DNA of 64,000 nucleotides from Prorocentrum cordatum (lineage: Eukaryota), in NCBI GenBank assembly GCA_963575745.1, contig CAUYUJ010000001.1:1178001-1242000 (forward strand), written 5' to 3'. Numbering within the stretch: the stretch's first letter is position 1; each line of letters opens with the position of its first letter. Positions 6,241 through 52,640 of the stretch are shown here, piece by piece. The translations under genes were made by a program, and so were the position numbers. The notes below the pieces were generated by a model, which made no database searches, had not been told where the DNA came from, and saw nothing but the letters and a program-made list of their open reading frames with translations.

Positions 6241-6249
6241 CCTCCGACG

Positions 6250-6429
6250 TGCATACATGCAAATATGCATACATGACTGAATACATACATTCATACCTTC
6301 ATACATGCTTACATACATACATACATACATACAGACAGTCATACGTATATGCAAACATACATACGTACATACATACATACATACATACATACATACATAC
6401 ATACATACATACATGTGTGTATGTGTAAA

Positions 6430-6467
<38 letters not shown>

Positions 6468-6836
6468 TACATACATACGTACATATGTGCATATCTGCAC
6501 GCATGCATGCATGCATATACACACATACATACATACCTACCTACATACATACAAACATACAGACCGACAGACAGACAGATAGACAGGCAGACAGACATGC
6601 ATGCATGTATGTATGTATGCATGCACACACTTGCATGCATACCGACATGTATGCATGCATGCATAGAAACAGATAGGCATGCATACCTACGCAAATAGGC
6701 ATACAACCATTTACGTACACATATATATGTAGGCATGCATACATACAGACATACAGCCATGCAGACACACAGGCATACACGCATACAGACATGCAGATAT
6801 ACAGTCATAGAGTCATACAGACAGACAGAGACATAA

Positions 6837-6883
<47 letters not shown>

Positions 6884-7020
6884 TGCATGCATGCATGCAT
6901 AGAGACATACACACCGTCATACATGCAGACAGACAGACCGATAGACAGACAGCCTGTCAGACAGACATAGAGATGTGAGTATATGCACATATATATATAT
7001 GTATAGATGCATAGAGAGAG
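6250..7020. repeat. Compound microsatellite (ATAC)n/(AT)n/(ACAG)n/(ATGC)n
   Basis: Directly visible. Confidence 0.95.
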
Positions 7021-11209: not shown

Positions 11210-12465
<1,256 letters not shown>

Positions 12466-23670: not shown

Positions 23671-23971
23671 GTTCAGAGGAAGAGAAGCTACGGATGCCGC
23701 GTTGGGCCTCCTGGGAGGCCCTCGTCGCCACGGCAGGGGTCGCCTCGAAATCCTGGTCAAACTGCACTCTAGGAGAGGTCCTGGGAGTGGCGGGTGAGCG
23801 ACGCAGGAGAACGGGTTCGATTGCGCCGACATTCGCGCGCAAGTTGCCCGCATAAGGCCGCGCGTCAGCGCCTTCTTCTCCACTCGGCGTGCCTCGCTGG
23901 AGGCCCGTGTAGGCCACCGCGTAAGGTCGCCGCGTCATCTCGCGAGAAACCAGTTTATGATCGTCGCTCAG

Positions 23972-29083: not shown

Positions 29084-29155
29084 GCATGATAATGCATGTA
29101 TACAGAAGGATAAATAAGTAGTATGCCGACAGAAAGTAAGATCGATATACCGATA

Positions 29156-31260
29156 GGACCACCCTACGGGTGATAAGGAGGTTTGGGGGGGAAGGAGGAG
29201 GCGGTCGATGTGCGATGACTCGCACTTGCCGCCACCAAAGAGTCCGCGGGAAAATCATCGGGACGGCCATTGGGACAACCATCGGGACAACGTTCGGGAC
29301 AACCATTGGGACAACCATCGGGACAACCATCTGGACAACCATCGGGACAGCCATTGGGGCAACCATCGGGGCAACCATCGAGACAATCATCGGGACAAGC
29401 ATCGGGACAAGCATCGGGACAAGCATCGGGACAACCATCGGGACAACCATCGGGACAACCATCGGGACAACCATGGGGACAGCCATCAGGACAACCATCG
29501 GGATAGCCATCGGGACAACCATCAGGACAACCATCGGGACAACCATCGGGACAACCATCAGGATAACCGTCGGGACAAACATCCGGACAACCACCAGGAC
29601 ATCCATCGGGTCAAACATCGGTACGACCGGCGGGACAACCCGGGAGCCACCAGAAGCCACGATTTGGTTAAGGGGCGGTGGATTTGGGATTCGACCCAGC
29701 TCTAACAACGGCAGGGAAAACCATCGGGACAACCATCGAGACAACCATCGGGATAACCATCGGGACAACCACCGCGACAACCGTCGGGACAACCATCGGG
29801 ACAAACATCGGGACAACCGTCGGGACAACCGTCGGGGACAACCACTATCCATCGCGACAACCATCGGGACAACAATGGGGACAGCCATCGGGACAACCAT
29901 CGGGACATCCATCGGGACAGCCATTGGGGCAACCATCGGGGCAACCATCGAGACAACCATCGGGACAACCATCGGGACAACCATCGGGACAACCATCGGG
30001 ACAACCATCGGGACAGCCATCAGGACAACCATCGGGATAGACATCAGGACAAGCATCGGGACAAGCATCGGGACAAGCATCGGGACAACCATCGGGATAA
30101 CCGTCGGGACATCCGCGGAACAACCATCGGGACAACCACGGGACAACCACGGGACAACCGCGGGACAACCACGGGACAACTGCGGGACAACCACGGGACA
30201 CGCGCCCGCCCAGGGGGGGAGGAGGCGGCCCTTTGGGCTCCATCCACATGGCCTCTACCAGTGCAGGAACCCGCGCAGCTTCGCCTCGCACGCACGACAC
30301 GAACCGAAACCGAAGCCGATTTCCCGGTTGGGTTCACTTCCGCTCACACCCCCCCAATTTCCGATAGATAGTGAGCTCGATTGTGTGAGCGATATGAAGA
30401 TACATCGATGGATCGGCAAATAGATTGATAGTGCGAAAGATAGGGGTTGTTCGGTGGATGGAAACGGTTGCACCGATGGTTGTCCCGTCGTTGGTTCCAC
30501 AAACTCGCACAATGTCTTTATCGGTCGTTTCTCGGGCTTCGTAGGTGTCTATGTATGTATGCATGTGTATGTAGATGTGTATATATAATGATCGCACTGC
30601 TGATATATGGATAGAATTTCCGTACTGCGCACATACCAGTCGATCGCGTTACCTACTGGTGACAATTGTATCGTCCGTCCCCACGATAATCCAAACGTCT
30701 TGCACCACTAACTATCACTCTCACTGTCTACCAATCGACCTCACCATCAATCTACCTGTCGGTCTCCCTATCTATGTATTGGGACAACAATGGGGACAAC
30801 CATTAGGAAAAGCTATCGGGACAACCACAGGGGCAGCCAACGGGAAAAGAATCGTGACAACCATCGGCACAACCGTCGGGACAAACATCGGGACAACCAT
30901 CGGGACAACCGTCAGGGCAAACATCTGGACAATCATTTGGATACCCATCGAGACTGACATCGGGACAACCATCGAGACAACAATCGGGACAATCATCGGG
31001 ACAACCATGGGGACAGCCATCAGGACAGCCATCGGGACAACCATCGGGATAACCGTCGGGACAAATATCCGGACAACCATCAGGACATCCATCGGGTCAA
31101 ACATCGGTACAACCAGCGGGACAACCCGGGAGCCATCAGAAGCCACGATGTGATTAAGGGGCGGTGAATTTGGGATTCGACCCAGCTCTAACAAGGGCAG
31201 GGATTCGGGCGGCGTGGTCTTGCCCGCATGCACGACACGAACGAAACGAAAGGATTTTGT
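29156..31260 (+). repeat. Minisatellite-bearing element with (GGGACAACCATC)n arrays and an internal duplication
   Basis: 12-bp unit arrays at ~29250-30200 and ~30780-31130. The block ending GGGATTCGACCCAGCTCTAACAA occurs at ~29600-29710 and ~31085-31195. Confidence 0.9.
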
Positions 31261-35729: not shown

Positions 35730-35934
35730 TGATGTAAGGGTTGTTTATCCAATGCCCTCATCGTATTTTCCCCCCCACCCACTCTGGACGGAGGCTTAAG
35801 GCGAACAAAACGAGCTATCCGCTGCCATTGTGGTTCACAGCGGCGCGCAGCAGTATTTGCCTAATACGGACTCTGTTGATTATGCGTCTGCGGAGGCGTA
35901 GTCTATGGTTCGGCGTACCATATTGCTTTCGACT
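35730..35934 (+). repeat. 5' LTR of the Copia element (left boundary approximate)
   Basis: Shares GACGGAGG.TTAAG.CGA.CAAA.CGAGCTATCCGCTGCC.TTG.GGTTCACAGCGG.GCGCAGCAG and TACCATATTGCTTTCGACT with 50513-50824. Confidence 0.8.
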
Positions 35935-35949
35935 TGGTAGCGGAGCTGG
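35935..35949 (+). promoter_or_regulatory. Primer-binding site, probably for initiator tRNA-Met
   Basis: TGGTAGCGGAGCTGG starts immediately after the 5' LTR. TGGTAGC is complementary to the 3' end of eukaryotic tRNAiMet. Confidence 0.7.
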
Positions 35950-38900
35950 CCTCACTACCGTGCGACTGGCTCTGATCTGAATACCGGTATTCCACGGCAC
36001 AGCTTGGTGGACGAGTGGCATGGTGGTTCCGATTGCGCCCACGCCCTTCCGCTGAACGGAGCGAGGCCACTGGCTTACCTGTGACGATACACCAGTCGAC
36101 AGACACATCGACCATTGCGCGTCCGCCACGGTTATACGCCCTTACGTTCCTCATCATTGCCAACAGCTAGTTGGCAACAAGTTTTACTACAAGGTCATCC
36201 TACGTGACTCGACGCCGCCGCGCGGACTGTCGCCGACACCCATCCGAAAGCTGACGACCACGTCAGCCCCAGAAAAGCCAGGCCATCACATCCATGACAC
36301 CCTTAGCATCATATGGACATGCGTCCATTATGCAGTTGGGTACATGCAGCGCGGACGAGATGGTACCCGTACCCGAGGTCCCTCCTGGGACACTGCAGGC
36401 AAGATACCGTTTCGCGAGTTCCTCTGCGAAATTCATTCGAGTTGAACGTGACCAGCGGCACAAGGACACCACCCCAATAAGCCGCCGCACTACAACGCGG
36501 TCTGAATCGTCTCGCCAGGATAATTGCGATGAGAGTGCCGTCCCACATCTTCAACGACGGGGTGACTAATCGAGACCAACACACCGACGGAGTAACCTGC
36601 ATCATGTTCCTCCTGAGCTTAAACTTCGAAGAATTAGAGGACGACTAGAGGACGACGACAACTGATGTCTGGAAGGACACTCATCGGGCTCCGCGTTGAG
36701 CGCGTGCAGCGAATCGATGCGGTCTTAGCCCTCTTCGAGATGGCCAAGCTGGAAGCTGATTAAGCCAGATTCACCTTTCCCAACTTCCAGATCCTGGCGA
36801 TCATCCGATTTCGGGTCCTAGGAGTCGACACCTCCAGGCCCTCACAGCTCCTACAGCCGCTCAACCACCAGATGCCCCGTTACCAACAACAGTATGATCA
36901 ATCATTTGAGCGCGAGCGCAGCTATGGACACTTAGCTGAACTCGCCCCTGGTCATTTTGGCGGCATCTTCAATGGACGTGGAAACGATGCAAGTTCATTC
37001 CACGCCACCAAAGTCGACACCCAGGCCGGTGCATGGACACCTGCAAGTGACAGCATCTGCGGGGACACAGACACCTCAGAAGCCACAGCTTTATTAGGCC
37101 AAGAAACGGGCGTCGCGCCAACTAGTGGCGCCACCGGGTCACAGCTGCCACAAGAGGCTTACACTCCACCGTCAAACCCAGCAACCACCATTCGGGGAGA
37201 GGCTGGAAAGACCGGTTCGCCCATCAACTCTGGCACCGACCCCGACACCGTCTCATCATCAGGTATTGCAGATACACCACGGGCAGACGCACCAGTTAAT
37301 TTCACTAACGAGCAGACTGCTAAAAATTTAGTTCTAAGATATCAACCTGCTAAGCGTCGCTGGAGACGATATGCCGAGAAACCCGTCAGACGCGTCAGGC
37401 GTGCAATGCGAAGAGTATTCCACAACAAGGGAAAGGAACGAGGCAGGGGTAGGGGACGGAGGAGACTGCATCGCTTTTGTGTCGTTACGTCGTTAATGGC
37501 ATCTCTCATTGGCTACAAGTTGAAGAACCATTCGCTGGCAAGGGAAAGGGCAAGGGACGCCGACCCACTTCAGGAAAAAAGCCAGGGGCGAAAGGCGAAC
37601 CCCGTGAGACGACACGGGAACTGCATAAAGCGCAGCGCACGCGATAGCACTAACCGTTTCCAGGCCCAGTGCCCAAAAGGCTAGAGAAAGACGGCGACTC
37701 CGCACATCTCGCCTCAGAGCATACTGAGTTCGATTCACCAGCGGCGGCGTCGACGACAACCTGGTTCCTGATGGCTCGCTTCGCTGATGGATCCGCGGGA
37801 GTCGAGCAGTGCGCCAACAACCTCTTCGACGAGCTATACAGCCACGAGGGGGAAGCCACTCAATTCCAGGACTGGCCGTGCAACCCAATGCCCCGCACAA
37901 CAACACGCTGGAGGATAGCAACATCGAGATCATGGACGACGACGAGAAGGCGGGCGCTACCCCCGAGGCCGAGATTATCCTAGCCGTTCAAGACGAGCTC
38001 CATGCCCGCTCACACGGACACGTGCCAAGTAGCGAGGTGACGGATCACGTGCTCGGCCATGGGCCAGCCCCGACGGCCACCGGTTTCATCGCCGAGGGGC
38101 TGACAGCCATCGGCTGGGGCAGCTCCACAACTACTGCCTTCGCTGCTGCGGCGCAATGGGCCGGCCCTCCTTAAGACCACACTAGCAAGGGCCAGGGCAA
38201 TGGCAAGTACCGCGACGGCCGAGGCCGAATGGTCGCCCCCGAGGACCACGCGCGCCGGCATTGAACCGGCGGCCGGTGCGAGCAGGACATCAAGCAACAA
38301 ACATTTGGCTCGCGAAGACGATGGCCGCATCATCCGAGACACCCGCCACAGCCGCACTGAGGACACAAACATGCGGAGGATGGCCAAGCGCGAGTGGATA
38401 GCGGACACACACGTACACAAAATTACCGAGTCTGCTGTTGCAAGATCCTTCAGAACCACAAGCCCGGCCGCCCGTTCGACGGGCCGTCGCGATCGCCGCG
38501 CCACGCGGCGACCCCGTGAAAATTCACGACCATTGCGATGGGTGCGGCGGCCCAGCTCAGCCCGCCCCCGATCGTCGGCAGCCCGTGGAGGACGCGGCCA
38601 TCACCGCGGCCCAGGACAGATGCGCTGACCTCGACCGATCCAAGTCAATCGCCGGCAGGGCGGCTGACATCCTGGGCCCATCACAACCAACGCCTGAGGA
38701 TCATGTGCCCGCGCGGTCCGACGCTTGTCAAACAGGCACTGCCCATCGCACGGGGCGGGCCCCAGGGTCGCGCCCAGGCGGCCTCGGCGCCCACGTCGGG
38801 AAAGCCAGGGCAGCGCCCCCCCCCTGGAGAGCCGCCGACGATGATGCGGCTACCGACTTCGCCAAGAACATCGGTGCCGAATCACGACCACAAGAGCCAG

Positions 38901-39169
38901 ACTTCCGCAGGTCCGACGCGTCCGGGCATCAGCAACAGCTGCATGCGGGGCCACTGGCAAGGACGCGCGCCTCGGCGCCAACTCGGCCCCAGCCACCACG
39001 CAGGTCGACCGAGCGGCCACGGTCTCGCCGATGAATGACGCCGATGGGCGAGTCATGCGACACGGAGCGGATTGCCCAGGCCAGGCCATTGGCGAGGACT
39101 CTTCATCAACACGGCCACGCGCCGAGGAACCGATCGAGACTCTCGATGGCGACATATGCAACGCACATG

Positions 39170-39170
39170 C

Positions 39171-39252
<82 letters not shown>

Positions 39253-39388
39253 ATAGAGAGAGATATAGAACAAAAAATAAATAGAAGGAGAAACCAAGAG
39301 AGAGAGAGAGAGGAACAACAACAAAAAAAAAAACAAAAAAAAAATATAACAAAGAATAATTTTTAATATTATTACATATATTAGAAGA

Positions 39389-39484
<96 letters not shown>

Positions 39485-40310
39485 ATCTGATTTCCCATGT
39501 GTACCATCGGTGCTTCTGCTGCTGCTCCTCCTTCTTCTCCTCCTCGATGTCCTCCTGCTGCTGCTTCTGCTGCTGCTGTTTCTGCTGCTGCTGCGTCTGC
39601 AGCTGCTGCTGCTGCTGCCGCTGCTGCTGCCCCACCTCCCCGTCCTCCTCCTCCTCCTCCTCCTCCTCCTCCTCCTCCTCCTCCTCCTCCTCCTCCTCCT
39701 CCTCCTCCTCCTCCTCCTCCTCCTCCTCCTCCTCCTCCTCCTCCTCCTCCTCCTCCTGTACCTCCTCCTCCTACCTCCCAGCGCACCCCCTGTGGCGTCG
39801 ACGACATGCCACGCCTGCCACGCCCTCGGATCCTGCAGCGCATAGGGCTCCACCCCCAGCGCACCCCTTGCGGCGTCGAGGACATGCCACGCCTGCCACG
39901 CCCTGGGAGCCTACAACGCATGGGGCCCCCACCCCCAGCGCACCCCCTGTGGCGTCGAGGACATAGCCTGCAGCGCATGGGGCCCCCACCCCCAGCGCAC
40001 CCCCTGTGGCGTCGAGGACATGCCACGCCTGCCACGCCCTTGGAGCCTACAACGCATGGGGCCCCCACCCCCAGCGCACCCCCCGTGGCGTCGAGGAAAT
40101 GCCACGCCTGCCACGCCTTGGGAGCCTACAACGCATAGGGCCCCCACCCCCAGCGCACCCCGCTGGTCGAGGAAATGCCACGCCTGCCGAGCTCAGGGAC
40201 CACCCCCTTGCACACCCGCCTTGGTGCGAGAAGGAGAGGGGGAGGGGGGAGGTGTGAGACGCGGGTGCGGCGCGGCAGGGAAGAATACCAGAACCCCACG
40301 AAACATGCGG

Positions 40311-40360
<50 letters not shown>
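39170..40360. repeat. Repeat insertion inside the Copia element: (GA)n, poly(A), (CCT)n and a ~80-bp tandem unit
   Basis: Unit CCCAGCGCACCCCCTGTGGCGTCGAGGACATGCCACGCCTGCCACGCC repeated about five times at 39776-40200. Confidence 0.9.
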
Positions 40361-40362
<2 letters not shown>

Positions 40363-40483
40363 AGCAGCACATTCGCAATGCCCTGCGCTGCCGCGAGCCA
40401 CCATGTCTCCAGGGCTTGGAGAAACAGCCAAAGAGTGACCCGCGGGCAGGCGGCCGCGGCTGTCAGCTCCCACGACAGTCGGA

Positions 40484-41115
40484 GGACACCAAGATATCAG
40501 GAAGGCCGCCCACGAGTTGCCGCCACAGGCCCTTCTCCCACGACGACCGTTCTAGCAAGCATTTCCAGCAGGAAGTCCCCCCCACGACGTATACGACGGT
40601 TGGATGAATACGCGGGAGGCGCTAGAATCGCGCGACGATGGGAAGTGGCATTCGACGGCCAAGGTGCGATTGGAAGACCAGCACCTCGATTACACATTGC
40701 CGGCGCTACTCAGGGCCGCAAACATGACGGACGCGCGCACGGTCACGCAAAAAGGTAGGCGCCAGTTAAAGCACGCGTGCGCCCCTGGCACTACATCAGC
40801 GCAACGTTCGGCCGCGCGTGACCAGGCATCCCGGCGCTCGTCTCGCTCCATTCGCGGGCCACCGCTACAGGCCAGCCAGAGAGACCACAGCACTACATAC
40901 ACGGCACCTACTTCGATTGCTTCGAGCCCATTTTCAAATGCAGACCTTCCTGCCGCATAGAGTCAGGCATGTGTCTCGACTCCGATACGACCCCGTTCAT
41001 ATCGATGAAGCGCCAATTGCAGCATGGAGTTGAGATCTGGAGGTCTGCCAACGACATCCTCCTCACTGATGGATTCGACGGGGCGATACCGCCTCGCTTC
41101 ATCATCCAGATTGCG
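40484..41115 (+). pseudogene. Degenerate Tpt1/KptA RNA 2'-phosphotransferase domain inside the Copia element
   Basis: Ordered motifs across frameshifts: DTKISGRPPTSCRH, YDGWMNTREAL, QKGRRQL, WHYISATFGRA, then one frame HYIHGTYFDCFEPIF...ESGMCLDSDTTPFISMKRQLQHGVEIWRSANDILLTDGFDGAIPPRF. Confidence 0.8.
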
Positions 41116-42395
41116 GCCATGAGCGACACGGGCGCCCAAAAAGGCTGGGCGCGGCAGAACGAGCTGCACTTCGGCCCCCGCGGCGACCCGGACAAGATGC
41201 CGGGGCCAGGTGCCCCGACCCGGAACCGTCGCCAGCCAAAGCACCCGCATGGCTTCGGATCCGGGGCGCACGCCATCATCATGATGGACGGCACGCACGA
41301 CGCGCCGATGACAGACGCAGGGTCATCTGCAGGAGACGCCCCTCTGGAGCATGGACCATTGGCATCCTGGACCATACCCTCAGCAGCCGAGGCGGCTGCC
41401 ATGCCAGCCAAGACGGTCACCGCCGTCACGGACGCCCTTACGCGCAACGACCCGTAGGCGGCAGCGGCTGGGCCCCAGTCGAACATGAAGGACGCCGTGA
41501 TGCCAGCACTACTGGGGCGACCTGCCTTGCTGCGACCACCGAGTCAGGCCAGCGCTGCACATGTCGAGACCCTTGCCACGTCGGACGGCGGATCTACACC
41601 AGCAACGCCCTACGCGACGCCGACGATGATCACGGGCATGAAGGCCGGCGATTTGCGCAAGCATATGATTGTCGTAAACCAACAGTTTGGTCTGGCCGCG
41701 ACGATTCGGGGGAACACGCCATTCGCCACGCCGCAACAGCCAAGCCAGGCCACTAGCAGCCCACCAGCGGACTCTCGGGCACCGCTTGACCACGGGCTAC
41801 GCAACTCCATCACGATGCAGTTGCGGCACCTCCAGCAGCAGCAGCAGCAGCAGCAGCAGAATGCCATCAACGAGATGAGCCAGCTGAGGCTGCCTGACGG
41901 ATGGAAACCACTAGGTGCCGCCTGGGAGTGGTTCCCTGAGATGCATTGCGACGGACAGCTACTATTGCCCGCCTTCGCTGCGCACCCAGACTTTCTGCGC
42001 CTGCATCACTCCCAATGGACTTCCCCATGCATCCACGGTTCGTCGTCGAGCGCGAAACAACCCCATGGTCGGCGAGTACACCAGCAATAGGCGCACCAGG
42101 GAATTAGCAGACGAGATGTTCCGCTGCTAGTCTGCGCGGGCCCAGGACCCGCACGACATCCCACACATGGCGCACCAGCTACCTCCGGCAGACCCCGGCA
42201 ACATCGCAGCACCAATTGGGGAGGTGCGCGGCATCTAATGCACTGGGGCCACCATTAGCGCACTTACAGAAGATGCACAACAGAACAGCAGCCGCCACCA
42301 CCAGTCGACCTGGCCGACGACGCGACCTTCAGCGCCAGCAGCGGACCAGGCCAGGTACGGAGGCCCCCATTGACAATGGAATCGCTTTAACGCAG

Positions 42396-42555
42396 TGCGC
42401 GGCATGCCTGGAGCCTTTCCGGACTAGGGGCGCGTTGCGAAGGCTGCAGTGCGGACGTCAATTTCACGCTGCCCGCTGGGGCCGAACTGCGCGCGCACAC
42501 GTCGGCACCAACAGGAATGGTGCACCCACGGGGGCGCCATGCGCGGTGAGCCGCG
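42396..42555 (+). pseudogene. Degenerate RING-H2-like zinc finger inside the Copia element
   Basis: CAACLEPF...LRRLQCGRQFHAARW...APCAVSR matches C-x2-C..C-x-H-x-FH-x2-C..CPxCR with several ligands lost. Confidence 0.65.
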
Positions 42556-45500
42556 GGGTGGGCACAGTCATCGTTCAACGCCCTCACGCGGGCCACCGCG
42601 ACGCCGAGGCCGCCGACAACACCATCATCGGCAGCGCGACCGAGATACTTGATCCGCGCGAGCAGGTCGCGGCGCTCATGGCGCTCCTCCAGGCCCCGTG
42701 CCAGGCACCTGGCAGCAGCGGGAACGAGGCCACCATGCCCCAGACGCGTCCAGCGGCACAGCCATGAACAGCCCCTCAGCCCAGGACAGCGATCCCGATT
42801 CCGTTCCTGCTAGCACCGACTCTGCACAACGAGGGGCCATCCACCCAGGACGCGGGGGCACCTGCTGCTATTACCTACGCAGGGCCACCTGCAATACCTC
42901 CGAATCCCTGCGCCAATCCGCCATTGGACAGAATTGAACAGGCACAGCGGGCGAGGATGGGTGGGGGGGGGGGGGGGGGCAGACCCCACAGGCGGCCACG
43001 CTCAGCGGCCAACAGAGCCGACAGCCCTGTCAGCGCACGCAGCGCACAGAGTACTGAGTCTGAACGCGCGATACACCAACGGGCCCTCATGATCTTCGGC
43101 TCGAGCTCGGCATCCAGATCAAATGCTGACGAGCTATCGACAGAGACCAGCGATCAGGTTACCGACCTACGGGTCGCCGAACACGACTCCATCACCAACG
43201 AGGAAAGGCAGGCCTGGCTTGCGAGCTGGAACGGCACTGCCACGGCTCAGGGCCCCGTCGCATGGAGGCTGGACCAGAGGCGCCGCAGGTGCTTACGGGG
43301 CGCAGACATTGTATGCATGAGGCCCCCCATGACTGCACAGGAGGTCTTCGCTGCTGGTAGATACCGCACCACGCTTGCCGACAAGCTGAGCATGCTCGTG
43401 GATATTGGGCCAAACGCTTTCTTTTTTCTTGGCCTCAACACGGCTCGCCGAGTCTACGATGACGCGGCTGCGCATGGACACGCGTCGAGGGTTTTGAAAC
43501 TCGACCGCCTGTTGCCCATCAACGGAGCGGGCCCTGGCGCGGCTGCGTCGCGCCGCGCCAGCGGCAAGTTCCACGTCGCGCGCAAGTACAACGAGGCCGA
43601 CGCCTCCATGACCCAGATGGATTATTTCATGGCAAACATCGCGGAGGAATCAGGCGAGAATGTGCCAGAGATCTTCGGGCCCACCTCGATGCAGGACACG
43701 CGCCGGACAAGGACAATATCATTCCCCAGCAGTTCGACCAACAAGATCCAGCTCGGCAAGGGGGCGAAGGTCATGCGCCTCGAGAAGACGCCTTCGGGAC
43801 ACTTGGCAACCCCTTGCAGCCAGTTTGCCGGATTCGCCCCACTTACCGTCGGATGGCGACTCGGCAGCTCGAGCCTTTACCATTACGTGCAACGGCCAGC
43901 TGCAGGCGATGCACGCGAAGCAGGACACCAGCGCGGACACGCGCATCGACGACTACTTGGAGGATCGATGGGACAACCAGATTCCCACAGCCATCGGCAA
44001 GGTTCTGGACCGCTGGAGCAGGTCCGCCCAGAGGCACGCCGAGTCCGAGGCGACGCTGAAGCGCTTGACGCGCGCTACGAGAAGGCCTGCGAGGCAGCTG
44101 CGGAGTAGAAGCCGGGCGAGATGGAGGACACCCTCCATCCACTACGTTCGCACGAGTGGGACTCACTGCGCCCAGGAGGCGGTCCACCACCGGGGCCACT
44201 GATGGAACCGGCGCGGTCACCTGCCGCGCCCCGCAGTGGCGACATCGTCGACGTCTCGCCGAACACGGCCAGCTATGGCGACAGCAACAACCGCCCAAGC
44301 GCGCTGCCATTACGCGGAGCAGTGACGCCAGCTCACCAGCCGGGGGGGAGTGGCCGAGGAATCGCCCGGTCACGGCGGCGGTCGAGAACATCGACTAACG
44401 GGGGCAGACCGGCGGCACGGCCGCGCCGGCAGTAATCGGCCGCCCGCGGGCCTACGGGACTCCTGACCGGCCGCGTGTCTCACCGCTGCCTGCCAACAGC
44501 GTTGCGAAAAAGCTCTGGTCGTAGAGGATATACGCACCGCAACCGCCGAACTCCGACAGAGAGGCGATGCATGCGACAGAGCAACACAAAATGAGATTAT
44601 CGCGTCTACCAGGGCCCACTACTTCAGTAGCCCACTGGCGGGGGATTATCGAATATTTTGGGTGGCCACGCCGCGCGACTGGCGCGCGCGCGCCTGGCAA
44701 GCGGGCAGGGCCACACCACGATCGCAACGCAATCTTACAACTAGAGCGCGCGCTCTGCGAATGCTGATTGCGATGATGGGCCCACCACGGTATTTCGGGA
44801 AGCTGGGCCCCATCCAGAACGCGATTCAGGACCTGAAGTTTCGCCAGATTTGGATGCGTCTGCGCCAGGTTGACTTCAAGCACGGCCGAACATCCAAATC
44901 ACCTCGTGGCTCAAACCTACACGTGGTACAACGCTATGATGCCCACTTCACTACGGCGGTGCATGCGCGCGCGCTCGACTGGCACGGGCACCAGCAAAGC
45001 CGCGCAGATACAGAAGGCAAGCGTTATACTCATAGCACCCCCTTCGAATAATTGGACAAATCCAACAACGCAGAGAACGACGGGAAGGAAACATATTTGA
45101 GCATGTTCATTCGTCCCGACCAGGGCGCTCGGAGATACGCCCAGACGCCGCTCAACGGGCCCGAGCGGGGCGAGGTTGCACGCAGGGCGACCCTTGGTTC
45201 GGACACCAAACCGACTGTCCAAGACTTGCAGGTCAAGGACCAACCGGCAGGCTACGATTGGACGACTCAAGTACCTTCTCGAGTCCGACAGATCAGTATT
45301 AGATTGTATGGGGAGCCCGCGGTCGCTGCCCTGCTCGGCCACGAGCGACCAACGGAGCGGCAACGCTCAAAACAACGAGTGACGTTCATCGCAGATGATC
45401 GATCTTTTCCTTCCCCCACTTTCGGGCATGGTTGCGAGCTCGACGGCGAGGGGCTACCCACTACGCCGTTTCCGACTCTTTAGGAGACCGCGTTATTTTC

Positions 45501-45659: not shown

Positions 45660-46230
45660 GCCAGCGCTGTCGACATGTTGGAACTTCGCGGCAATTTGGC
45701 GGAACCTCACCGCTAGCCGTCGAAAGGAATTGGAGATAATGTGGACAAGCGCGCCAACGCGGACCAGGGGAATCCGCGGGTCCAACCAGCAGCGATCCAC
45801 TACCTCAACACGCGCTGGGTTGCTGTATACAACCCAAGTGCAGATCAATTGGGCTACCATCATACTTCAAACCCCAAGTCAACTATGAGACGCGGAACGT
45901 CCACCGCCAAGAAGACCTGCCACAAATTACCTCCTGTGGCAAGCTAGCCGTCCAATAAGACGACATCCGACGCTTATTCCTTTAAGAACGTTTATCTGGC
46001 ATTTGGGCAGACGAGATCACACCGTGGTCGGAACTGGCCAAACACGAGGTCAATTGCCGACAAATTATAGACCAATGCACCACCGGTCCACGAGACTCCC
46101 ATTGCATCTTGATCCTGTAACCTACGGACATGATGGCTCACCACCGAGCAATACTACAACCACTCGAGAACAAGCGGTGCCAAAGCCATCATGAACACGC
46201 TCAGGCGTGGAACAAGGAGCTTGCCATGGC
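45660..46230 (+). pseudogene. Possible decayed C5 cytosine-methyltransferase-like domain between protease and integrase
   Basis: AVDMLELRGNLA; GDNVDKRANADQGNPRVQPAAIHYL; IDQCTTGPRD..*PTDMMA..LENKRCQSHHEHAQAWNKELA. These resemble by eye the DNMT-like blocks of dinoflagellate retroelements. Confidence 0.4.
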
Positions 46231-48656
46231 AGTTCAACACACGCCTAAGATGCAGTCGCCGATCGTGGATGCGGTCAAGATTGCCAAGGAACTATACGCC
46301 CGCGGCTGCAACATTTTCGCCGACAGCGTTGCGACCACCCCTGTGGTCAACAGCGCGGGACGCGACCTGGATGACGCAAGCGTCCCGCGTCAATCCAACG
46401 GCGTCATCGCACGACCACCAGGCGGGAGTCTGAGATGTCCTGCTTGCACGGAAAGCGCACGGATGAGTTCACCTCGACACAGTCGCAATCCCAGGATTTG
46501 CACATGGAGTGATAAAGAACCACCTTACTGGGAACGTCCTACGTGTAAGACAGACTAGGGCAGCAACAAGGCTGGACACTTACTGCCCCCAGGCACATGC
46601 AAATTTGACAAACCCGAGCAACTATTCGACAACCTCGGAGAGCCACCAGCGGCGCCAGCTGCAGCAGGAGCCGTCATGGCCAGCGGTTATCATGGAGATC
46701 GCAGCGGCACATCGAGCGTCGCCGGCAGTTCGACTGCCCGCAGACAGGTTGAAGGAAGGCGTGGACGCGCGTAGGGCGGCGAGGATCCACCACCGCCGCC
46801 CCAGGCGCAAGCCGACGCACGGCCACTCGCGAGACTACCGGACTGGTCACGGTTCGGCGTTCAAATTAATATCCAGAGTTTGTGCAGTTTTGACCCAGCT
46901 GTAGTCACGAAAGAATTGCGCCGGCGTCATATCCGACGGTATCGCGCCACGGAACCGAAGATGATAGAAATGATTTCAAAGGTGGATCTTGACAGTGCGC
47001 GCCTTGACATGGCGAAGGTAGTCTGCGGTTCATACCGCGGAGGCAGGTCTGCGAAAAAAATGGTAACAAAGTTACGCCATCAGTCAGCATCATCATTGAT
47101 CGCTGCACTCGAAGGCAGCTGGACAGCAGTGAACAAGACAACGCACAGCATTCTGGACGCCTACCATCAGCCTTGGATGCAACGCGGACCTGCCAGGGTC
47201 CTGCATTCTGATGGTGAGGGGCCTTGAACAACGACACAGCCAAGGCCGTCCTTAAGCCAAGGACACTGAGCTTCGCGTGCGAGCGCGCGGCCAGCACGCT
47301 ACCACCATCGAGACGGCATTACTCGACACGCCTCACGCCATGGAAGAAGAATTCAAGAGGGATAACAAACTCTATCGTCTGCACGAATACTGCGCGAAGC
47401 CATGTCTGTGAGCAGTGCGCTCACCTCTACGATGGTGTTTCACCTTACTAAGCTCTTTACGGGCGACAGCCTGCACGCGTCCGGGACCTTCCAACTATTG
47501 ACCACGAACATGGTCAAGAAACCTCAGATCATAACCGCGAACAGCGGATCAGAAAGATTAGCATTGAGGCTCTCACGCAGACCATTGCAGTAGGTAAAAT
47601 CAACCGTGCCTCAGTCACGAAGATTACACCACCTGACCATCTACAAGCCAGTGGATCTCGTTGGCTACCACCGACCTACCACAACAAAAGACGACTGGAG
47701 TAGCTGGAACGGCCCATGCCGAGCCGCGAGGAATGATCCCGAACGCGGCAAAGTTCCGGCGCGGGTCGGGGGGAGAGAAGTCTTGGTTCAGCACCCAGAC
47801 GCACAGCGCACACTGCACGCGGAATCATGCATCGCCCGCGAGATCGGCTCCGATAGCACGGCCACGCGTACAGTGCTGGCCTGTATCGCAGCATTACCTT
47901 TGGGGAAACCTGCTATGATTTCTGGCGACTTGCAAGCGAAGCAGGCAGCCCTGCGACAGACGACCGCGAGCAAGCGATCGCCCAAGGTCCATTTGGCCTT
48001 ACCATATCACATCAGGGATTATTTCTGGATCGAAGACGTAGTCGCAGTGAGAATGGCCAAAAGCGTTCAACGATTCCCTGCAGCGGTTTACATTAGCAGT
48101 TGTACGCTGGCTTACTACGACAGCGACATTATCCCAGGATTCCGCTGCTACGCATGAATGAAATCGCACAGCCTTGAACATATGGTATTATTGTCATGTC
48201 ACACGCATGGGGTGCTCTGGCGCCTTAAATCCTCGAAACCGTCGGCGGGCTTCGATGATGATTCATCAAAGTTCGAAGTGCTGGCGGAAACGCCGCCACC
48301 ACCGAGCGGCCAGCCCAGGAGAAAGCCCAACTGGCTCCCCCCGAGCCCAACGACAACCGCCTATCCACCATCTACGGGCGTCCGACGGCGACCTCGAGGC
48401 ACACAGCATGGAGACATGGCACACAGGATGAGTGGTAGAAAAGGAACTCCTGGAGGCCACTCCCTCTGAGGAGTTATACACAGCACCAACCCAGATGATC
48501 ACCGAAAACTGCGCGCTGCTGACTGCGGCCAGTGAAGAGCAGGGCAGGGACACTTGCCCACGCGGGGCAACCAGCAGTACGACACCGAGGAAGCATACCA
48601 TGCCCCCTTGTGCTCAATGAACCATGACGTCACAAATGAATTAGATTCCGACGAGC

Positions 48657-50241
48657 ATGGACAATATGTTGAAATCTCTGTCAAACATGATGATTTCGAG
48701 ATATGTGTACATATGGAAATTCGTCAATAACGAGAACGGAGACATGCAACGCACCATTCGACTCCGCCTTGCGTTGCGGGGACCCATGAACCCCGAGGCT
48801 TTTGATGTGAAGACCTTTTTCAGGCAGTGCCAGGCGATTGAGCCAGAGGCTACTCGCCAGCACGGCCGCGCACAAGATACAGCGGACCATTGCATCCATG
48901 GACATCGACAACGTTTTTTTTCTGAAAGGGGCTCACATACCGCGAGCTGGACGAGGCAACTGGATAGTACGTGTTTACCTTGAAACCAGGTTCAGCCACC
49001 GTCCCGAGGCCACTCCCAGGCTTCGCGTCCAGAGACGAACCGAAGCATTGCCTGCAGTACCTTGAACGAGGCGCGGGGACCAAAGACGCCCCGCGGGCGT
49101 TCTCGCTGAAGCTTCGCACGACCACTCGAGGAGTCGGACTACGACACACATCATACGATAACGAGTTCGAGACTAGCCAGACCCTTTTGACGGCAAAATC
49201 AAACGATGGCATCAACATGGCCAGTACTGGAGACATGATCTGCAAGAATGTCAAATTCATCGAGAACACTTTCGGCGCATGCAAGCTTACCACGCACACA
49301 TACACAAACTTCGCCGCGAGGCACCTCAAACTTGAAGATGGCGGCACCACCCTCGACCGGGGCGAATGCGTCAAACACCTCCACCCCATACAGCATCCGG
49401 AATTCCGAGGCGCTGAAATTGCAGACGCGGCGACAAACGTTACGGCTGACATGTTCATCAGCTTTCGAAATTTTTTGGCCCACGCCTTAATCACCCAAGA
49501 ATTGTCGATGGCGCACGTAGGATCTCTACAACAAGTCCAAGAACCGACCAACATACAGGCACGACGACTAAATGCTATAACCAGGAAGCTACAAGCAGGC
49601 CCAAAGAAAATTAGAGACCAGCCTATGATTCCGCCAGGAGAATTGGCCCTGCACAGCGACTCCGGTTACCAGTGTTTCAACGGCAACGCCGCCGACGAAG
49701 AGAAGAGGCACGGCGTCAGATATACCAAGCTACTTTGGCGTGGACACACGCAAGGTGGAAAGCCTGTCGCACACCTGGTAGACACACATTGCACCCCATC
49801 GGCTACACGCACGCTCTAGCTATTCAGCAGAAACGCTAGCAGCAGGCCACAACTTGGAAGATTCCGACTATCAGGAGACTCCACGAATTCCAGGTAGGAC
49901 CATTCATCCCAACACAGCTCAAAAACAGATTGGAAATGGGTGGCCGGTGCACCAGAGTCACGCTGACCATCGATGTTGAGTCCGTCTTCATACCCCTATC
50001 TCACAAGGACTTCAAGAATTCGACAGAATGTACACTGCTAGCTCACATAAGCAGGATTAGACATGTGATGGACAGGGGTATCGCACATAGTGTACAAGTG
50101 TGTGACACACGTGATATGACAGCCGACGGACAGACCAAAGGTAGTATCGATCGTGAGTTGCTCCTACAAGTGATGCCAGGTATTCAGCACTTCGAACATG
50201 ACCTGAAGAAACATGCGCCGTACTGGGCGAATCAGGCTTGA
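48657..50241 (+). pseudogene. Copia reverse transcriptase-RNase H, frameshifted
   Basis: ORF pieces 48657-48983, 48838-49065, 48971-49819 and 49930-50241 carry the RT and RNase H motifs. The catalytic HVDD is degraded. Confidence 0.85.
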
Positions 50242-50512: not shown

Positions 50513-50824
50513 TGATGTTGCGAGCGGATATGCCAGTCGTCTGTTCCCCACCCCCGCTTCAGACGGAGGTTTAAGACGAGCAAAGCGAGCTATCCGCTGC
50601 CGTTGCGGTTCACAGCGGAGCGCAGCAGCATTTGTTTAACCAGCATTGCGTTCACTATTCGCTCGCGACAAACGGAAAGCATCTCTTCTAGCTTGCACCC
50701 GCTTACGACTTCCACCACATGTCCCATCTCCCATCTACACGTACGTACTCCAGTGTGGTTGGGCCATGGGAACATCTGAGGCCCAGTATATGCCTCGGCT
50801 TACCATACCATATTGCTTTCGACT
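50513..50824 (+). repeat. 3' LTR of the Copia element (left boundary approximate)
   Basis: Direct repeat of 35730-35934, with an extra internal segment (~50645-50770). Confidence 0.8.
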
Positions 50825-52640
50825 CCCCCCTGGCTCCCAGATCACATCCTTCACAGGTTGGTCTCCAGGCCACCTGCGGGAGGCGCCCCTGATCCTTCTG
50901 TGGGGCAGGGCCGCGCCGGAGGCGAGAGCGCATCTCACCGCCCTGCGCCCCACCAGATCTTCGACCTCCTCGCCCACGAGTTGCACGCTGGCACGTCTCG
51001 CCCTGGCGGTGTTTGCCTGCGCCGCGTTTGCCGCACCATGCTTACACTGCCCCGCCTGCGGGCTAGCGGCCGAAGGGCCCACCGACGGGCAGAGACTTGC
51101 CTGCGCCGCCCCTGCCCTTCATCCCGTGATGCCCCGATGCCGCGGTGTTGTCGGGGGTTGCTAAAGGTGCCCCTGGCCCGAGGCGCCCCCAGCTTTTCCT
51201 TTTATTTTGGAGCACCCGGGGCTTTCTGAGCCTCGTGACGGGTGCTTTGGGGGCCGCGGGGGCATCCTTCTGGAAATCCTAAGCGCATTTGGGGCCAGGG
51301 ACACTCGTAGCAACACCCGACCCTTGCTTGTCACCCCGTGCTGCTCCGATGCCGTGTTGCTGCTGTTGAGAGGAGGACAAAAACGTGAGGGCCCGGCGCC
51401 GTGGCCGCCCGCCCAACGGCGCGTTCCGTGCCCTGGGGAGAGTTTCGCCCATCTGCGCTGCTACCTGGTTGTCTGCAGATCCTGACCTTCGGCACGGTCC
51501 CAGCCTCTCTCTTTTCCTTCTCCCCCCTCATCCTCCCTTCTCCTTTTCCCGCCAGTGATTTGTTAGTTGTGGGCTGTCGCTGTAAATAAAGCCACTGGTC
51601 AGGTCCGCCGCGTATCACCACGGAGTGCACGGGTTGATCGAGAGATGTTGGGGTCGCCCGCTTTCGTTTACTGCCTTGTTTTTCCAGACAGATAGATATT
51701 CACCTCCTGCAGCAGATCTCCGATGACTTGATGTTGTTCAGTCCCGGCCGGTGTTCCTCGCTTTCTCCGCCCCCCCCTTCTCTTTTGCGGCCGCCCTCCT
51801 TTTTTTCCCAATTGTCTTGGTGTGTCCAGAGTCGGGTGCGGCACGTCGGCTATTCGAACGCGTTGGCGTCCGCCCCCGCTGCGGACAGAAACGAGGAATT
51901 GTCTTCGATTTCGGCATCTGGGGCCCGTTATTGGGCCCCGGGGCCATACAGAATATACCTGGTGACCAGGTCTCTGGGCCCAGGCGGCCCGCTTTTCCAA
52001 AATCCCCTCCCGTCGTCGCAACGTATGTGCAATCAGTGAGTATGTCCGCGCACATGTAGGGTTGTATCGTCGTCGAAGGCGGGTGCTTGCTAGAACCTAG
52101 GCGTGCGCGAAGCGCGCGACTGGTTCTAGTCCAAATGGATCCAGGCTTTTATCAAAGACGGGCCCAGGGCGGAAAAAACAACCCTGGGAAAGCGGTCCTA
52201 ACTTCTGGGACCAACACCTTACAAGCCGAAACGTATTTGAGAATAGGAGGAGGAGGAATAGGAGGAGGAGGAGGAGGAGGAGGAGGAGGAGGAGGAGGAG
52301 GAGGGGGAGGGGGAGGGGGAGGGGGACGAGGATAATGATGAGGATCGGACGGGCAATAACACGACGATGAAGAAGGAGGCGGAGGAGGGGGAGGGAGGAT
52401 GAGGGAGGCGGAGGAGGAGGAGTAGGAAGAGGAGGAAGAGGAGGAGCAGGATAACATGAGTGTGGGGTTGCGGATTGAAAGAATCAGATCGGCGAATGCC
52501 ACAGCCCATGCCCTCGGCTGAGGACTGCAGCGGCCGCTGCCGCGCCCCCCCGCCGCTGCTCGACTGGGACGGCGCTCTCATGGCCTCGTAACTCGCAGCC
52601 TGGGGAATGGCGCGTCTGCGCATACCTCTTCTCCTGGGCA

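What the first reader, a model, noticed from the sequence alone, without database searches (positions are those of the whole stretch)
40484..41115. Copia LTR retrotransposon carrying a Tpt1/KptA RNA 2'-phosphotransferase domain
Seen: between Gag and protease, on the element's sense strand and without introns, motifs follow Tpt1 order: SKxLSxxLRH-like DTKISGRPPTSCRH, DGW, a KxRF-like block, an IRAxQGHS-like block, IHGT, SGM, and RSANDILLTDGFDGAIPPRF. Known: Tpt1/KptA uses NAD+ to remove the 2'-phosphate at tRNA splice junctions, and some homologs ADP-ribosylate 5'-phosphate nucleic-acid ends. It is not part of the canonical Copia architecture. Inference: the family captured it to process the tRNA primer, heal RNA, or cap cDNA ends. 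I am not aware of a description of such an element. This copy is inactivated.
Basis: partly seen in the sequence, partly recalled or inferred. Interest (0 to 1): 0.9.

Follow-up and report, generated by a model that had tools for sequence, protein, structure and literature searches.

The report
Copia retrotransposon carrying a Tpt1 domain
The window holds a dead copy of an unusual Copia-type jumping gene whose intact relatives encode, inside their single long protein, a working-looking copy of the RNA-repair enzyme Tpt1, a combination that seems not to have been described.

Summary
Window 40484-41120 (+) holds a decayed Tpt1/KptA domain. It has at least 2 frameshifts, 1 in-frame TGA and a 25-residue deletion, and 2 of the 4 catalytic-tetrad residues are lost. 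It lies inside a ~15 kb degraded LTR element (about 35.76-50.83 kb). On one strand, in order, the element has an LTR remnant, a tRNA primer-binding site, gag, Tpt1, a RING finger, a protease-like region, integrase, RT, an RNase H-like end and a second LTR remnant.

The domain did not arrive with the 39.17-40.36 kb simple-repeat insertion. A metagenome contig (L001) carries gag, Tpt1, RING and the protease-like region in one uninterrupted reading frame of more than 2653 codons. That frame is collinear with the window.

In intact relatives:
- the Tpt1 domain passes Pfam's cut-off (62 bits against 26);
- it keeps the Arg-His-Arg-Arg tetrad and the HGT motif;
- it folds like TRPT1 (Foldseek E 3e-12);
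- it is under purifying selection (dN/dS 0.12, against 0.68 in the adjacent linker).

RT relatives carry Pfam RVT_2 (Ty1/copia type), and integrase lies before RT. Four literature searches found no description of a Tpt1-bearing retrotransposon. What the domain acts on remains inference. Verdict: a new variant of a known kind; interest about 0.72.

The parts
35761..35934 (+). 5' LTR remnant; its left boundary is uncertain
   Evidence: 35761-35886 aligns to 50537-50661 (78-84% identity) and 35893-35934 aligns to 50778-50824 (77%). The similarity ends directly before the primer-binding site.
35935..35950 (+). Primer-binding site TGGTAGCGGAGCTGGC, complementary to a tRNA 3' end ...GCUACCA
   Evidence: The same 16-mer stands at L001 1014-1029, between the pol stop and gag. 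The flanking DNA is otherwise diverged.
36302..37684 (+). gag, decayed and spread over several frames
   Evidence: tblastn of L001 ORF aa 206-554 matches 36302-37384 at 46-55% identity, E 7e-58. A remnant of the CX2CX4HX4C knuckle region ends the ORF 36764-37684.
37685..39172 (+). Variable linker between gag and Tpt1
   Evidence: P0002 aa 25-62 and 166-273 match 37780-37893 and 38427-38861. There is no Pfam hit.
39173..40359 (.). Simple-repeat and satellite insertion: (AG)n, poly-A, (TGC)n, (CCT)n and a 79-nt unit x5.6, bounded by (AG)20 and (AG)23
   Evidence: Tandem Repeats Finder and repeat family D17. It has no counterpart in L001.
40484..41120 (+). Decayed Tpt1/KptA domain, read across three frames
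   Evidence: The breaks are a frame change between 40577 and 40586, a frame change between 40771 and 40780, a TGA at 40819-40821, and a 25-residue gap relative to L001 that covers the GRQFIHGCPYLPGD block. The IRA arginine is now Ser. LRH and HGT are kept.
41121..42386 (+). Family-specific linker between Tpt1 and RING
   Evidence: P0002 aa 283-489 match 41107-41832 (E 2e-26). P0031 aa 663-696 and 723-777 match 41899-41994 and 42056-42205.
42393..42555 (+). RING-H2 finger remnant
   Evidence: Pfam zf-RING_11 and zf-RING_2 at E 0.01 on ORF 42108-42767, aa 96-121. L001 aa 2128-2245 match 42387-42737, E 5e-14. Two of the metal ligands seen in L001 are substituted in the window (by eye).
43191..43829 (+). 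Protease-like region (LVDIGPN ... ESGENVPEIFG ... PSGHL)
   Evidence: P0031 aa 892-1426 match 42387-43829, E 4e-30. L001 aa 2421-2653 match 43191-43802. There is no Pfam hit and the AF2 model failed, so the protease assignment is inferred.
44515..45009 (+). Start of the pol-like region shared with long relatives
   Evidence: P0049 aa 1-146 match 44596-45009 (E 9e-14). P0042 aa 20-176 match 44515-44958.
46409..48151 (+). Integrase region, decayed
   Evidence: P0049 aa 734-1206 match 46829-48151 (E 1e-53). P0064, which carries Pfam rve at aa 500-586, matches 45827-48118 with aa 70-864.
48563..49792 (+). Reverse transcriptase of Ty1/copia type, spread over three frames
   Evidence: P0033 (Pfam RVT_2, 47.6 bits against a cut-off of 31.6) matches 48563-49792 at 50-71% identity, group E 4e-167.
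49797..50241 (+). RNase H-like C-terminal end of pol
   Evidence: L001:2-694 product aa 38-185 match 49797-50235 at 66-83% identity. P0033 aa 500-647 match the same stretch. The RNase H label rests on position and motif only.
50537..50825 (+). 3' LTR remnant, with about 115 nt more than the 5' copy

Best explanation
Window 35.76-50.83 kb (+) is an old, dead copy of a divergent Ty1/copia-type LTR retrotransposon lineage, probably of a marine protist. The Gag-Pol polyprotein of this lineage carries two extra domains between nucleocapsid and protease: a complete two-lobed Tpt1/KptA NAD+-dependent RNA 2'-phosphotransferase domain and a RING-H2 finger. SHOWN: the order LTR, PBS, gag, Tpt1, RING, protease-like, IN, RT, RNase H-like, LTR on one strand; the same gag-Tpt1-RING-protease-like order as one open frame in an intact relative; retention of the catalytic tetrad and the HGT motif; a Tpt1 fold; purifying selection on the domain; decay of the window copy. 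INFERRED: the element's protease releases the domain, and the domain uses NAD+ to act on a phosphate of a nucleic acid that the element depends on. My leading guess (about 35-40%) is that it removes a 2'-phosphate from the RNA template or the tRNA primer. Such a phosphate could be internal, like a tRNA-ligase junction or a 2'-phosphonucleotide, or terminal, and would otherwise block priming or read-through by RT. The main alternative (about 25-30%) is ADP-ribose capping of 5'-phosphate ends of the RNA or cDNA.
For: Tpt1 homology of the window.

Intact relatives. P0031 (1627 aa) has PF01885 at aa 151-384 (62.9 bits, E 5e-17) and a RING at aa 894-947. L001 has one open frame at 820-8778 (2653 codons, open at its 3' end). 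It holds a CX2CX4HX4C knuckle, PF01885 at aa 1387-1620 (61.8 bits), a RING at aa 2130-2183 and the protease-like block.

Collinearity with the window: gag 36302-37384 (E 7e-58), Tpt1 40789-41163 (E 6e-13), RING 42387-42737 (E 5e-14), protease-like 43191-43802 (E 3e-14), pol end 49694-50235 (E 4e-56).

Catalytic residues. R18, H19, R123, G127 and H128 of the L001 domain are invariant, and R188 (missing only in a decayed L003 piece) and H159-G160-T161 (HGT; T161 invariant) are invariant or nearly so, across 4 element-borne and 8 cellular-type sequences. The motif table for 16 element-borne pieces is. The tetrad is as defined in PMC6333775 (passages read).

Fold. The AF2 model has pLDDT 74 and pTM 0.71. 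All 21 Foldseek PDB hits at E<=1e-3 are Tpt1/KptA/TRPT1; the best are mouse and human TRPT1 at E 3e-12 and 5.5e-11. phmmer against PDB gives 7yw3 at E 3e-13. All 30 Atlas hits are PF01885 clusters.

Selection, L001 against L002. In the Tpt1 domain dN/dS is 0.116 (bootstrap 95% 0.071-0.174; 234 codons). In the 228 upstream linker codons it is 0.68 (0.47-0.98).

Copia type. 19 of 34 pol relatives have precomputed PF07727. 13 of 14 rescanned have RVT_2 at E<=0.01, and 3 of those 14 reach the cut-off. One has rve N-terminal to RVT_2. One relative is named by its source as Polarella glacialis Ty1/copia-type RT.

A 16-nt primer-binding site is shared by the window and L001.
Against: No ORF of the window itself hits Pfam RVT_2, rve, a retropepsin or gag models at E<=0.05-0.1. 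The Copia assignment therefore rests on relatives and on gene order.

The window's own Tpt1 hit is below Pfam's cut-off (19 against 26 bits).

The protease is not confirmed. The motif reads DIG rather than D[ST]G, Pfam is blank and the AF2 model is unusable (pLDDT 33).

One predicted protein from another copy of the family (P0002, 924 aa) joins the gag-like and post-Tpt1 parts. It has no Tpt1 (0 Pfam families) and skips the equivalent of window 38.86-41.1 kb. Its DNA could not be fetched, so a Tpt1-less copy cannot be told apart from a gene model that spliced out a decayed stretch.

Only two lineages (the window and L001/P0031) show the architecture through to the protease-like region.

Nothing bears directly on the substrate. 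No RNA ligase, 2H, Macro or Nudix partner domain was detected in the L001 polyprotein, and no ribozyme or other Rfam family was found.
Confidence: 0.8

Rival explanations
1. Same element and domain, but the domain works as a 5'-phosphate ADP-ribosyltransferase. It caps the 5'-phosphate ends of the genomic RNA or of the linear cDNA with ADP-ribose, protecting them from exonucleases, ligation or sensing before integration.
For: The closest solved structures and sequences are mammalian TRPT1. The abstracts of PMC10415124 and PMC12678800 describe these enzymes as ADP-ribosylating nucleic-acid 5' ends (search listing). The tetrad and the NAD+ motifs are kept.
Against: The same residues serve 2'-phosphate removal, so the sequence cannot discriminate between the two activities. 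No assay exists.
Confidence: 0.27
2. The domain is directed at the host rather than at the element's own intermediates. One version is repair of tRNAs cut by a host RNase-based restriction, as proposed for phage KptA. Another is interference with NAD+ or ADP-ribose signalling, perhaps together with the RING finger as an E3 ligase.
For: PMC9503650 (passages read) places viral KptA in RNA-repair counter-defence. It also reports KptA embedded in polyproteins of a picorna-like virus and a nidovirus. A RING domain co-occurs in the same polyprotein.
Against: No RNA ligase or 2H partner domain was detected in the polyprotein. No host data are available.
Confidence: 0.15
3. In the family the Tpt1 domain is a neutral passenger or remnant with no role.
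For: The window copy is dead. P0002 lacks the domain.
Against: dN/dS is 0.116 in the domain against 0.68 next to it. The tetrad is kept in every one of the 4 sequences that cover all four positions. The frame is open over more than 2653 codons. The element-borne forms are diverse: 11 of the 30 representative hits belong to them.
Confidence: 0.05
4. The Tpt1-like stretch is a host TPT1 pseudogene or retrocopy that landed in this one copy, for instance together with the 39.17-40.36 kb repeat insertion. A variant is that the relatives' architecture is an assembly chimera.
For: The stretch begins only about 125 nt after the repeat block.
Against: Sequence on both sides of the domain is collinear with L001 and P0031. 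The architecture recurs in independent ENA and JGI assemblies: P0031, P0032, L001, L002 and L003. Similarity to element-borne forms continues past the Pfam domain into the family-specific linker (query aa 45-121 against P0001).
Confidence: 0.03

Closest known systems
Ty1/copia (Pseudoviridae) LTR retrotransposons, for example the Ty1-copia-like SmTCL elements of Symbiodinium microadriaticum (PMC5776459, passages read)
   Same: LTRs; a primer-binding site complementary to a tRNA 3' end; gag with a CCHC knuckle; integrase upstream of an RVT_2-type RT; an RNase H-like end; occurrence in dinoflagellate-like marine protists.
   Different: It has about 1400 extra codons between nucleocapsid and protease that hold a Tpt1 domain and a RING finger. 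The element is about 15 kb long. Gag, protease and most IN/RT copies are too divergent for the Pfam cut-offs. The SmTCL description lists only RT, IN, RNase H and LTRs, with 0 occurrences of 'phosphotransferase', 'Tpt1' or 'RING'.
Cellular Tpt1/TRPT1/KptA (PF01885), solved as 7yw2, 7yw3, 6e3a and 8tg3
   Same: Two-lobe fold, Arg-His-Arg-Arg tetrad, HGT motif, and the SGxR and RSANDV-like C-terminal motifs.
   Different: It is embedded in a retroelement polyprotein. It has an insertion of about 11 residues after LRH and one of about 20-25 residues in the winged-helix lobe. It reads SE instead of SK in the first motif, NGH instead of QGHS, and GRQFIHGCPY instead of RNHVHF. It also has a conserved N-terminal extension of about 130 residues (VNPRYDP...CVARC).
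KptA domains embedded in polyproteins of positive-strand RNA viruses (Beihai picorna-like virus, Botrylloides leachii nidovirus) and found in a few large DNA viruses (PMC9503650, passages read)
   Same: A selfish replicon with an RNA stage carries Tpt1/KptA inside a protease-processed polyprotein.
   Different: Those are RNA or DNA viruses. That survey does not mention reverse-transcribing elements: 0 occurrences of 'transpos' and 'reverse transcriptase', and the 2 'retro' hits concern 2H domains of fish retroviruses.
Retrotransposons that captured host enzymes, for example DNMT-bearing retrotransposons of dinoflagellates (PMC5890265, passages read)
   Same: A cellular enzyme domain has been added to a retrotransposon coding region in the same broad group of hosts.
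   Different: The captured enzyme is different (an RNA phosphotransferase, not a DNA methyltransferase) and the superfamily is different. That paper states that the Symbiodinium Copia elements lack DNMT.

Membership tests
Tpt1/KptA (Pfam PF01885 PTS_2-RNA) | Match to the family HMM at or above the gathering score (26 bits) | tested here: not met
   The window ORF 40822-41457 scores 19 bits, E 0.0016, and covers only profile positions 138-177. Intact relatives meet it: P0031 62.9 bits, L001 61.8, P0032 59.2.
Tpt1/KptA (Pfam PF01885 PTS_2-RNA) | Arg-His-Arg-Arg catalytic tetrad (PMC6333775) | tested here: not met
   The window keeps R-H (TSCRH), but the third Arg is Ser (ISATFGRA) and the fourth lies in a 25-residue gap. 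Relatives L001, L002 and P0032 keep all four, and L003 does so across its pieces.
Tpt1/KptA (Pfam PF01885 PTS_2-RNA) | HGT NAD+-binding motif | tested here: met
   The window has IHGT at about 40894-40905. HGT is also kept in most relatives that cover the site.
Tpt1/KptA (Pfam PF01885 PTS_2-RNA) | Two-lobed fold (winged-helix RNA lobe plus ADP-ribosyltransferase NAD+ lobe) | tested here: met
   Tested on the intact relative L001, not on the window copy. AF2 gives pLDDT 74. All 21 Foldseek hits at E<=1e-3 are Tpt1/KptA/TRPT1, with TM (target-normalised) 0.70-0.73 to TRPT1. The N lobe has lower confidence (pLDDT 50-75).
Tpt1/KptA (Pfam PF01885 PTS_2-RNA) | NAD+-dependent 2'-phosphotransferase or ADP-ribosyltransferase activity | not testable with these tools
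   This needs a biochemical assay or yeast tpt1 complementation.
Ty1/copia LTR retrotransposon | RVT_2-type reverse transcriptase | tested here: met
   Met through relatives. No window ORF hits RVT_2 directly. Window 48563-50235 aligns at 50-83% identity to P0033, which carries RVT_2 at 47.6 bits against a cut-off of 31.6. 19 of 34 pol relatives have precomputed PF07727.
Ty1/copia LTR retrotransposon | Integrase encoded upstream of RT | tested here: met
   The IN-like region at 46409-48151 precedes RT at 48563-49792. Relative P0064 has rve at aa 500-586 before RVT_2 at aa 1141-1369; rve scores 24.5 bits, below its cut-off of 32.6.
Ty1/copia LTR retrotransposon | Flanking long terminal repeats | tested here: inconclusive
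   Only about 170 nt on the left and about 290 nt on the right are alignable, at 77-84% identity. The left boundary, the TG..CA ends and the target-site duplication were not resolved.
Ty1/copia LTR retrotransposon | Primer-binding site complementary to a tRNA 3' end, next to the 5' LTR | tested here: met
   TGGTAGCGGAGCTGGC stands at 35935-35950, directly after LTR similarity ends. The identical 16-mer stands at L001 1014-1029. Assigning it to initiator tRNA-Met rests on recall (A73 and U72 read from the complement); no host tRNA was available.
Ty1/copia LTR retrotransposon | Gag with a nucleocapsid zinc knuckle, and an aspartic protease | tested here: inconclusive
   CX2CX4HX4C is seen by eye in L001 and is decayed in the window. 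The protease-like block reads DIGSN or DIGPN. No Pfam hit. The AF2 model reached only pLDDT 33.

The most novel reading that the evidence does not exclude
A diverse, old lineage of Copia-type retrotransposons of marine protists has made Tpt1 an obligatory replication enzyme. That would mean LTR-retroelement replication in these hosts passes through a nucleic-acid intermediate carrying a 2'-phosphate, or through an ADP-ribose-capped 5' end. This would be a step unknown in retrotransposon or retrovirus biology. It would also be a natural handle on the long-open question of what Tpt1 does outside fungal and plant tRNA splicing.
Probability: 0.35. Interest if true: 0.88.

Novelty: new variant of a known kind. 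Interest (0 to 1): 0.72.

Why it matters
[quoted passage not shown] Here a selfish element keeps a catalytically intact Tpt1 under purifying selection, so the enzyme must do something useful for reverse transcription, particle biology or host evasion. That gives a compact and testable system. For transposon biology it adds a new accessory enzyme, together with a RING finger, to the Copia repertoire. It also extends the pattern of enzyme capture by retrotransposons of dinoflagellate-like hosts.

Tried and rejected
- No whole genome is held for this window, so copies of this LTR family in the host could not be counted.
- The look-up of sequencing runs on 40400-43400: none was listed and no RNA holder was listed.
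- The search for homologous proteins with the window ORF at 'near' lengths: 212 candidates, none at E<=0.01.
- Pfam on 9, 32 and 60 window ORFs covering 35.2-52 kb on both strands gave no RT, IN, protease or gag family.
- PDB phmmer found nothing for the N-terminal Tpt1 frame 40556-40960, nor for L001 gag or the gag-Tpt1 linker.
- AF2 of the protease-like region with a 4-row alignment reached pLDDT 33 and is unusable.
- tblastn for the relatives' conserved N-terminal extension (L001 ORF aa 1236-1400) in window 38.3-40.6 kb gave nothing below E 0.09. The best collinear candidate starts at 40362, right after the repeat block, at E 0.21, so this is not resolved.
- Rfam at gathering scores on the window and L001 gave 0 matches. 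ARAGORN found 0 tRNAs.
- The search for related loci in viral contigs and genome contigs found no relative.
- The search of earlier findings (place, sequence, words) returned nothing.
- The Atlas could not take the window RT ORF.
- I considered a 'tRNA-half primer healing' mechanism and down-weighted it, because the primer-binding site pairs with an intact CCA end.
- I did not build a Tpt1 phylogeny, because the hits carry no taxon labels and no host TPT1 is available.
Full report
WHAT IS IN THE WINDOW

The window is GC-rich (about 54-68%), repeat-laden eukaryotic DNA, and no genome is held for it.

Pfam PF01885 (PTS_2-RNA) matches ORF 40822-41457 at E 0.0016 and 19 bits. That is below the 26-bit cut-off and covers only the last 40 profile positions. 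The best PDB sequence hit is human TRPT1, at a weak E of 0.33. The two N-terminal frame pieces alone hit nothing.

The decisive test was an exhaustive phmmer of the 211-aa ORF against 1.84 billion representative proteins. It gave 30 hits at E<=1e-3, the best at 8e-11. Of those 30, 25 carry PF01885 at E<=1e-3 and 23 reach the cut-off. The resemblance is therefore real.

A DISTINCT ELEMENT-BORNE TPT1 SUBFAMILY

Eleven of the 30 hits (P0001, 3, 5, 8, 10-14, 19, 20) form a separate group. They share motifs such as GLSC...GRQxxHGCPYLPGDxRIQSGLR and VWRSANDIVMTSGxxGRIP. Their similarity to the window runs beyond the Pfam domain into the following linker, for example query aa 45-121 against P0001.

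A profile of these 11, searched among longer proteins, found two hits:
- P0031, 1627 aa, with PF01885 at aa 151-384 (62.9 bits) and a RING at aa 894-947;
- P0032, 524 aa.

A scan of metagenome contigs returned three loci:
- L001, 8780 nt, 99% identical to P0031 over aa 1-1417;
- L002, 74% identical;
- L003, 55% identical.

THE INTACT RELATIVE

L001 reads as follows:
- 2-694: the end of a pol gene;
- about 300 nt of non-coding DNA;
- 1014-1029: the 16-mer TGGTAGCGGAGCTGGC;
- 820-8778: one uninterrupted frame of 2653 codons, cut by the contig end.

That frame contains a gag-like part with a CX2CX4HX4C knuckle, a long linker, PF01885 at aa 1387-1620 (61.8 bits), a RING at aa 2130-2183, and a block with LMDIGSN...AEGSGE.LPAI.G...PSGH that I read as the protease.

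L002 is one open frame through the upstream extension and the Tpt1 domain. L003 carries frame breaks.

COLLINEARITY WITH THE WINDOW

tblastn of the L001 frame against the window gives matches that are all on the + strand and in order (for P0031):
- gag: 36302-37384, E 7e-58;
- Tpt1: 40789-41163, E 6e-13;
- two linker pieces: 41899-42205;
- RING: 42387-42737, E 5e-14;
- protease-like: 43191-43802, E 3e-14;
- pol end: 49694-50235, E 4e-56.

Long pol relatives map collinearly to 44.5-50.24 kb. P0033 matches the RT region at 50-83% identity.

The 16-mer TGGTAGCGGAGCTGGC also stands at window 35935-35950, exactly where similarity between the two LTR remnants stops. The LTR remnants are 35761-35934 and 50537-50825, at 77-84% identity. 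The 16-mer is complementary to a tRNA 3' end ...GCUACCA. From memory, U72 and A73 suggest initiator tRNA-Met; this was not tested.

The 39173-40359 block is simple repeats and a 79-nt satellite. It lies in the linker upstream of the domain, and L001 has nothing equivalent to it. So the Tpt1 domain is an integral, inherited part of the polyprotein and did not come with that insertion.

STATE OF THE WINDOW COPY

Compared with L001, the window's Tpt1 region needs three frames:
- 40512-40577, frame 0;
- 40586-40771, frame 2;
- 40780-41120, frame 1.

It also has an in-frame TGA at 40819-40821. It lacks 25 residues that in relatives hold the fourth tetrad arginine, and it has Ser in place of the third. 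LRH and HGT survive. The RING has lost two metal ligands. Gag, IN and RT are all split over several frames. With LTR identity of about 80%, this is an old, dead copy.

IS THE DOMAIN FUNCTIONAL IN THE FAMILY?

- Conservation. In an alignment of 4 element-borne and 8 cellular-type sequences, the tetrad and the HGT motif are invariant or nearly so: R18, H19 and R123 invariant, R188 and HGT at 90% or more (L001 domain numbering). The tetrad is as defined in PMC6333775. The motif table for 16 element-borne pieces is.
- Fold. An AF2 model of the L001 domain has pLDDT 74 and pTM 0.71. Foldseek returns only Tpt1/KptA/TRPT1 among its 21 PDB hits at E<=1e-3, led by mouse and human TRPT1 at 3e-12 and 5.5e-11. 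phmmer against PDB gives 7yw3 at 3e-13. All 30 Atlas feature hits are PF01885 clusters.
- Selection. Between L001 and L002, Nei-Gojobori dN/dS is 0.116 in the domain (bootstrap 0.071-0.174; 234 codons). In the 228 upstream codons it is 0.68 (0.47-0.98). Against L003 the synonymous sites are saturated (pS 0.74-0.84) while pN is 0.21-0.26.

These results point to an active enzyme kept by selection.

WHAT KIND OF ELEMENT IS IT?

Of 34 proteins related to the L001 pol end, 19 have precomputed PF07727 (RVT_2), and one is named by its source as a Polarella glacialis Ty1/copia-type RT. On rescanning 14 of them, 13 show RVT_2 at E<=0.01 and 3 reach the cut-off. One shows rve N-terminal to RVT_2. Together with the IN-before-RT order in the window, this places the element in the Ty1/copia type.

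It is very divergent, however. No window ORF and no L001 gag or protease segment reaches any Pfam retroelement model. The protease assignment rests on motifs only; the AF2 attempt failed at pLDDT 33.

EVIDENCE THAT CUTS THE OTHER WAY

P0002 is a 924-aa predicted protein from another copy of the family. It joins gag-like and post-Tpt1 segments without a Tpt1 domain. Its DNA could not be fetched, so I cannot tell whether that copy lacks the domain or whether the gene model skipped a decayed stretch.

Only two lineages show the architecture through to the protease-like region. Host copies could not be surveyed.

HOW IT MOST LIKELY WORKS (INFERENCE)

The domain sits between nucleocapsid and protease. 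It would be released by the protease and be present where the RNA, the tRNA primer and the cDNA meet.

The conserved tetrad binds the phosphate that attacks NAD+ (PMC6333775). My leading guess, at about 35-40%, is removal of a 2'-phosphate from the template RNA or the primer tRNA, since such a phosphate would stall priming or RT.

ADP-ribose capping of 5'-phosphate ends, the activity described for TRPT1 and KptA, is the main alternative at about 25-30%. A host-directed or counter-defence role is about 15%.

The primer-binding site pairs with an intact CCA end, which speaks against repair of a cleaved tRNA-half primer. No partner RNA-repair domain and no ribozyme was detected.

COMPARISON WITH WHAT IS KNOWN, AND NOVELTY

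Four full-text searches found no paper that describes Tpt1/KptA in a retrotransposon:
- 29 papers, 20 listed;
- 279 papers, 20 listed;
- 89 papers, 15 listed;
- 9 papers, 9 listed.

'PF01885' and 'PTS_2-RNA' occur in none of the 20 papers listed.

The Symbiodinium Copia paper (PMC5776459) and the DNMT-retrotransposon paper (PMC5890265) do not mention it (passages read). The closest precedent is KptA embedded in polyproteins of a picorna-like virus and a nidovirus (PMC9503650, passages read). Supplements were not consulted.

I rate this a new variant of a known kind: a Copia-type retrotransposon with a new captured enzyme plus a RING finger.

Noticed in passing
L001 2140-7538 (+): The 11-mer GGRCAACCTGC occurs 11 times, always on the sense strand inside the long ORF; 0.01 are expected from shuffles. 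Ten of the eleven encode the peptide AGQPA with the same codons each time, and they fall between the recognisable domains, at ORF aa 440, 490, 732, 743, 1083, 1737, 1788, 1938, 2197 and 2236. This could be a set of protease cleavage sites, a nucleotide-level signal, or both. The window element has only four one-mismatch versions (41515, 42882, 47903, 48565), which is not significant.
   Followed up: partly
L001 ORF aa about 1250-1386; also P0032, L002 and L003: A conserved extension of about 130 residues precedes the Tpt1 domain in all element-borne copies that reach that far (FWxxLGT..VNPRYDPxKxDGxxRYR...CVARC...RNxLRR.D.LTY). It has no Pfam or PDB match. It could not be found in the window.
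   Followed up: partly
window 42393-42555; L001 ORF aa 2130-2183: A RING-H2 finger lies in the same polyprotein, between Tpt1 and the protease-like block. As far as I recall, this too is not part of the canonical Copia layout. It scores Pfam E 3e-8 in L001 and is decayed in the window.
   Followed up: partly
window 23798-24814 (+): This is the only clear cellular-type domain among the 61 large ORFs scanned outside the element: Ion_trans (PF00520), E 2.6e-18.
   Followed up: no
window 29128-31203 and 11170-12460: There are long arrays of 9-12-nt periodic repeats, and the 29.2-30.2 kb array recurs at 30.78-31.2 kb. A repeat family of about 160-300 nt is also dispersed at 8.8, 20.6, 20.9 and 21.8 kb, and inverted at 59.0-59.2 kb.
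   Followed up: no
L001 1-1030: The contig joins the pol end, about 300 nt, the primer-binding site and gag. It therefore spans an LTR between two coding parts. This could reflect tandem copies, a one-LTR circle, or an assembly collapsed across copies; it was not resolved.
   Followed up: no
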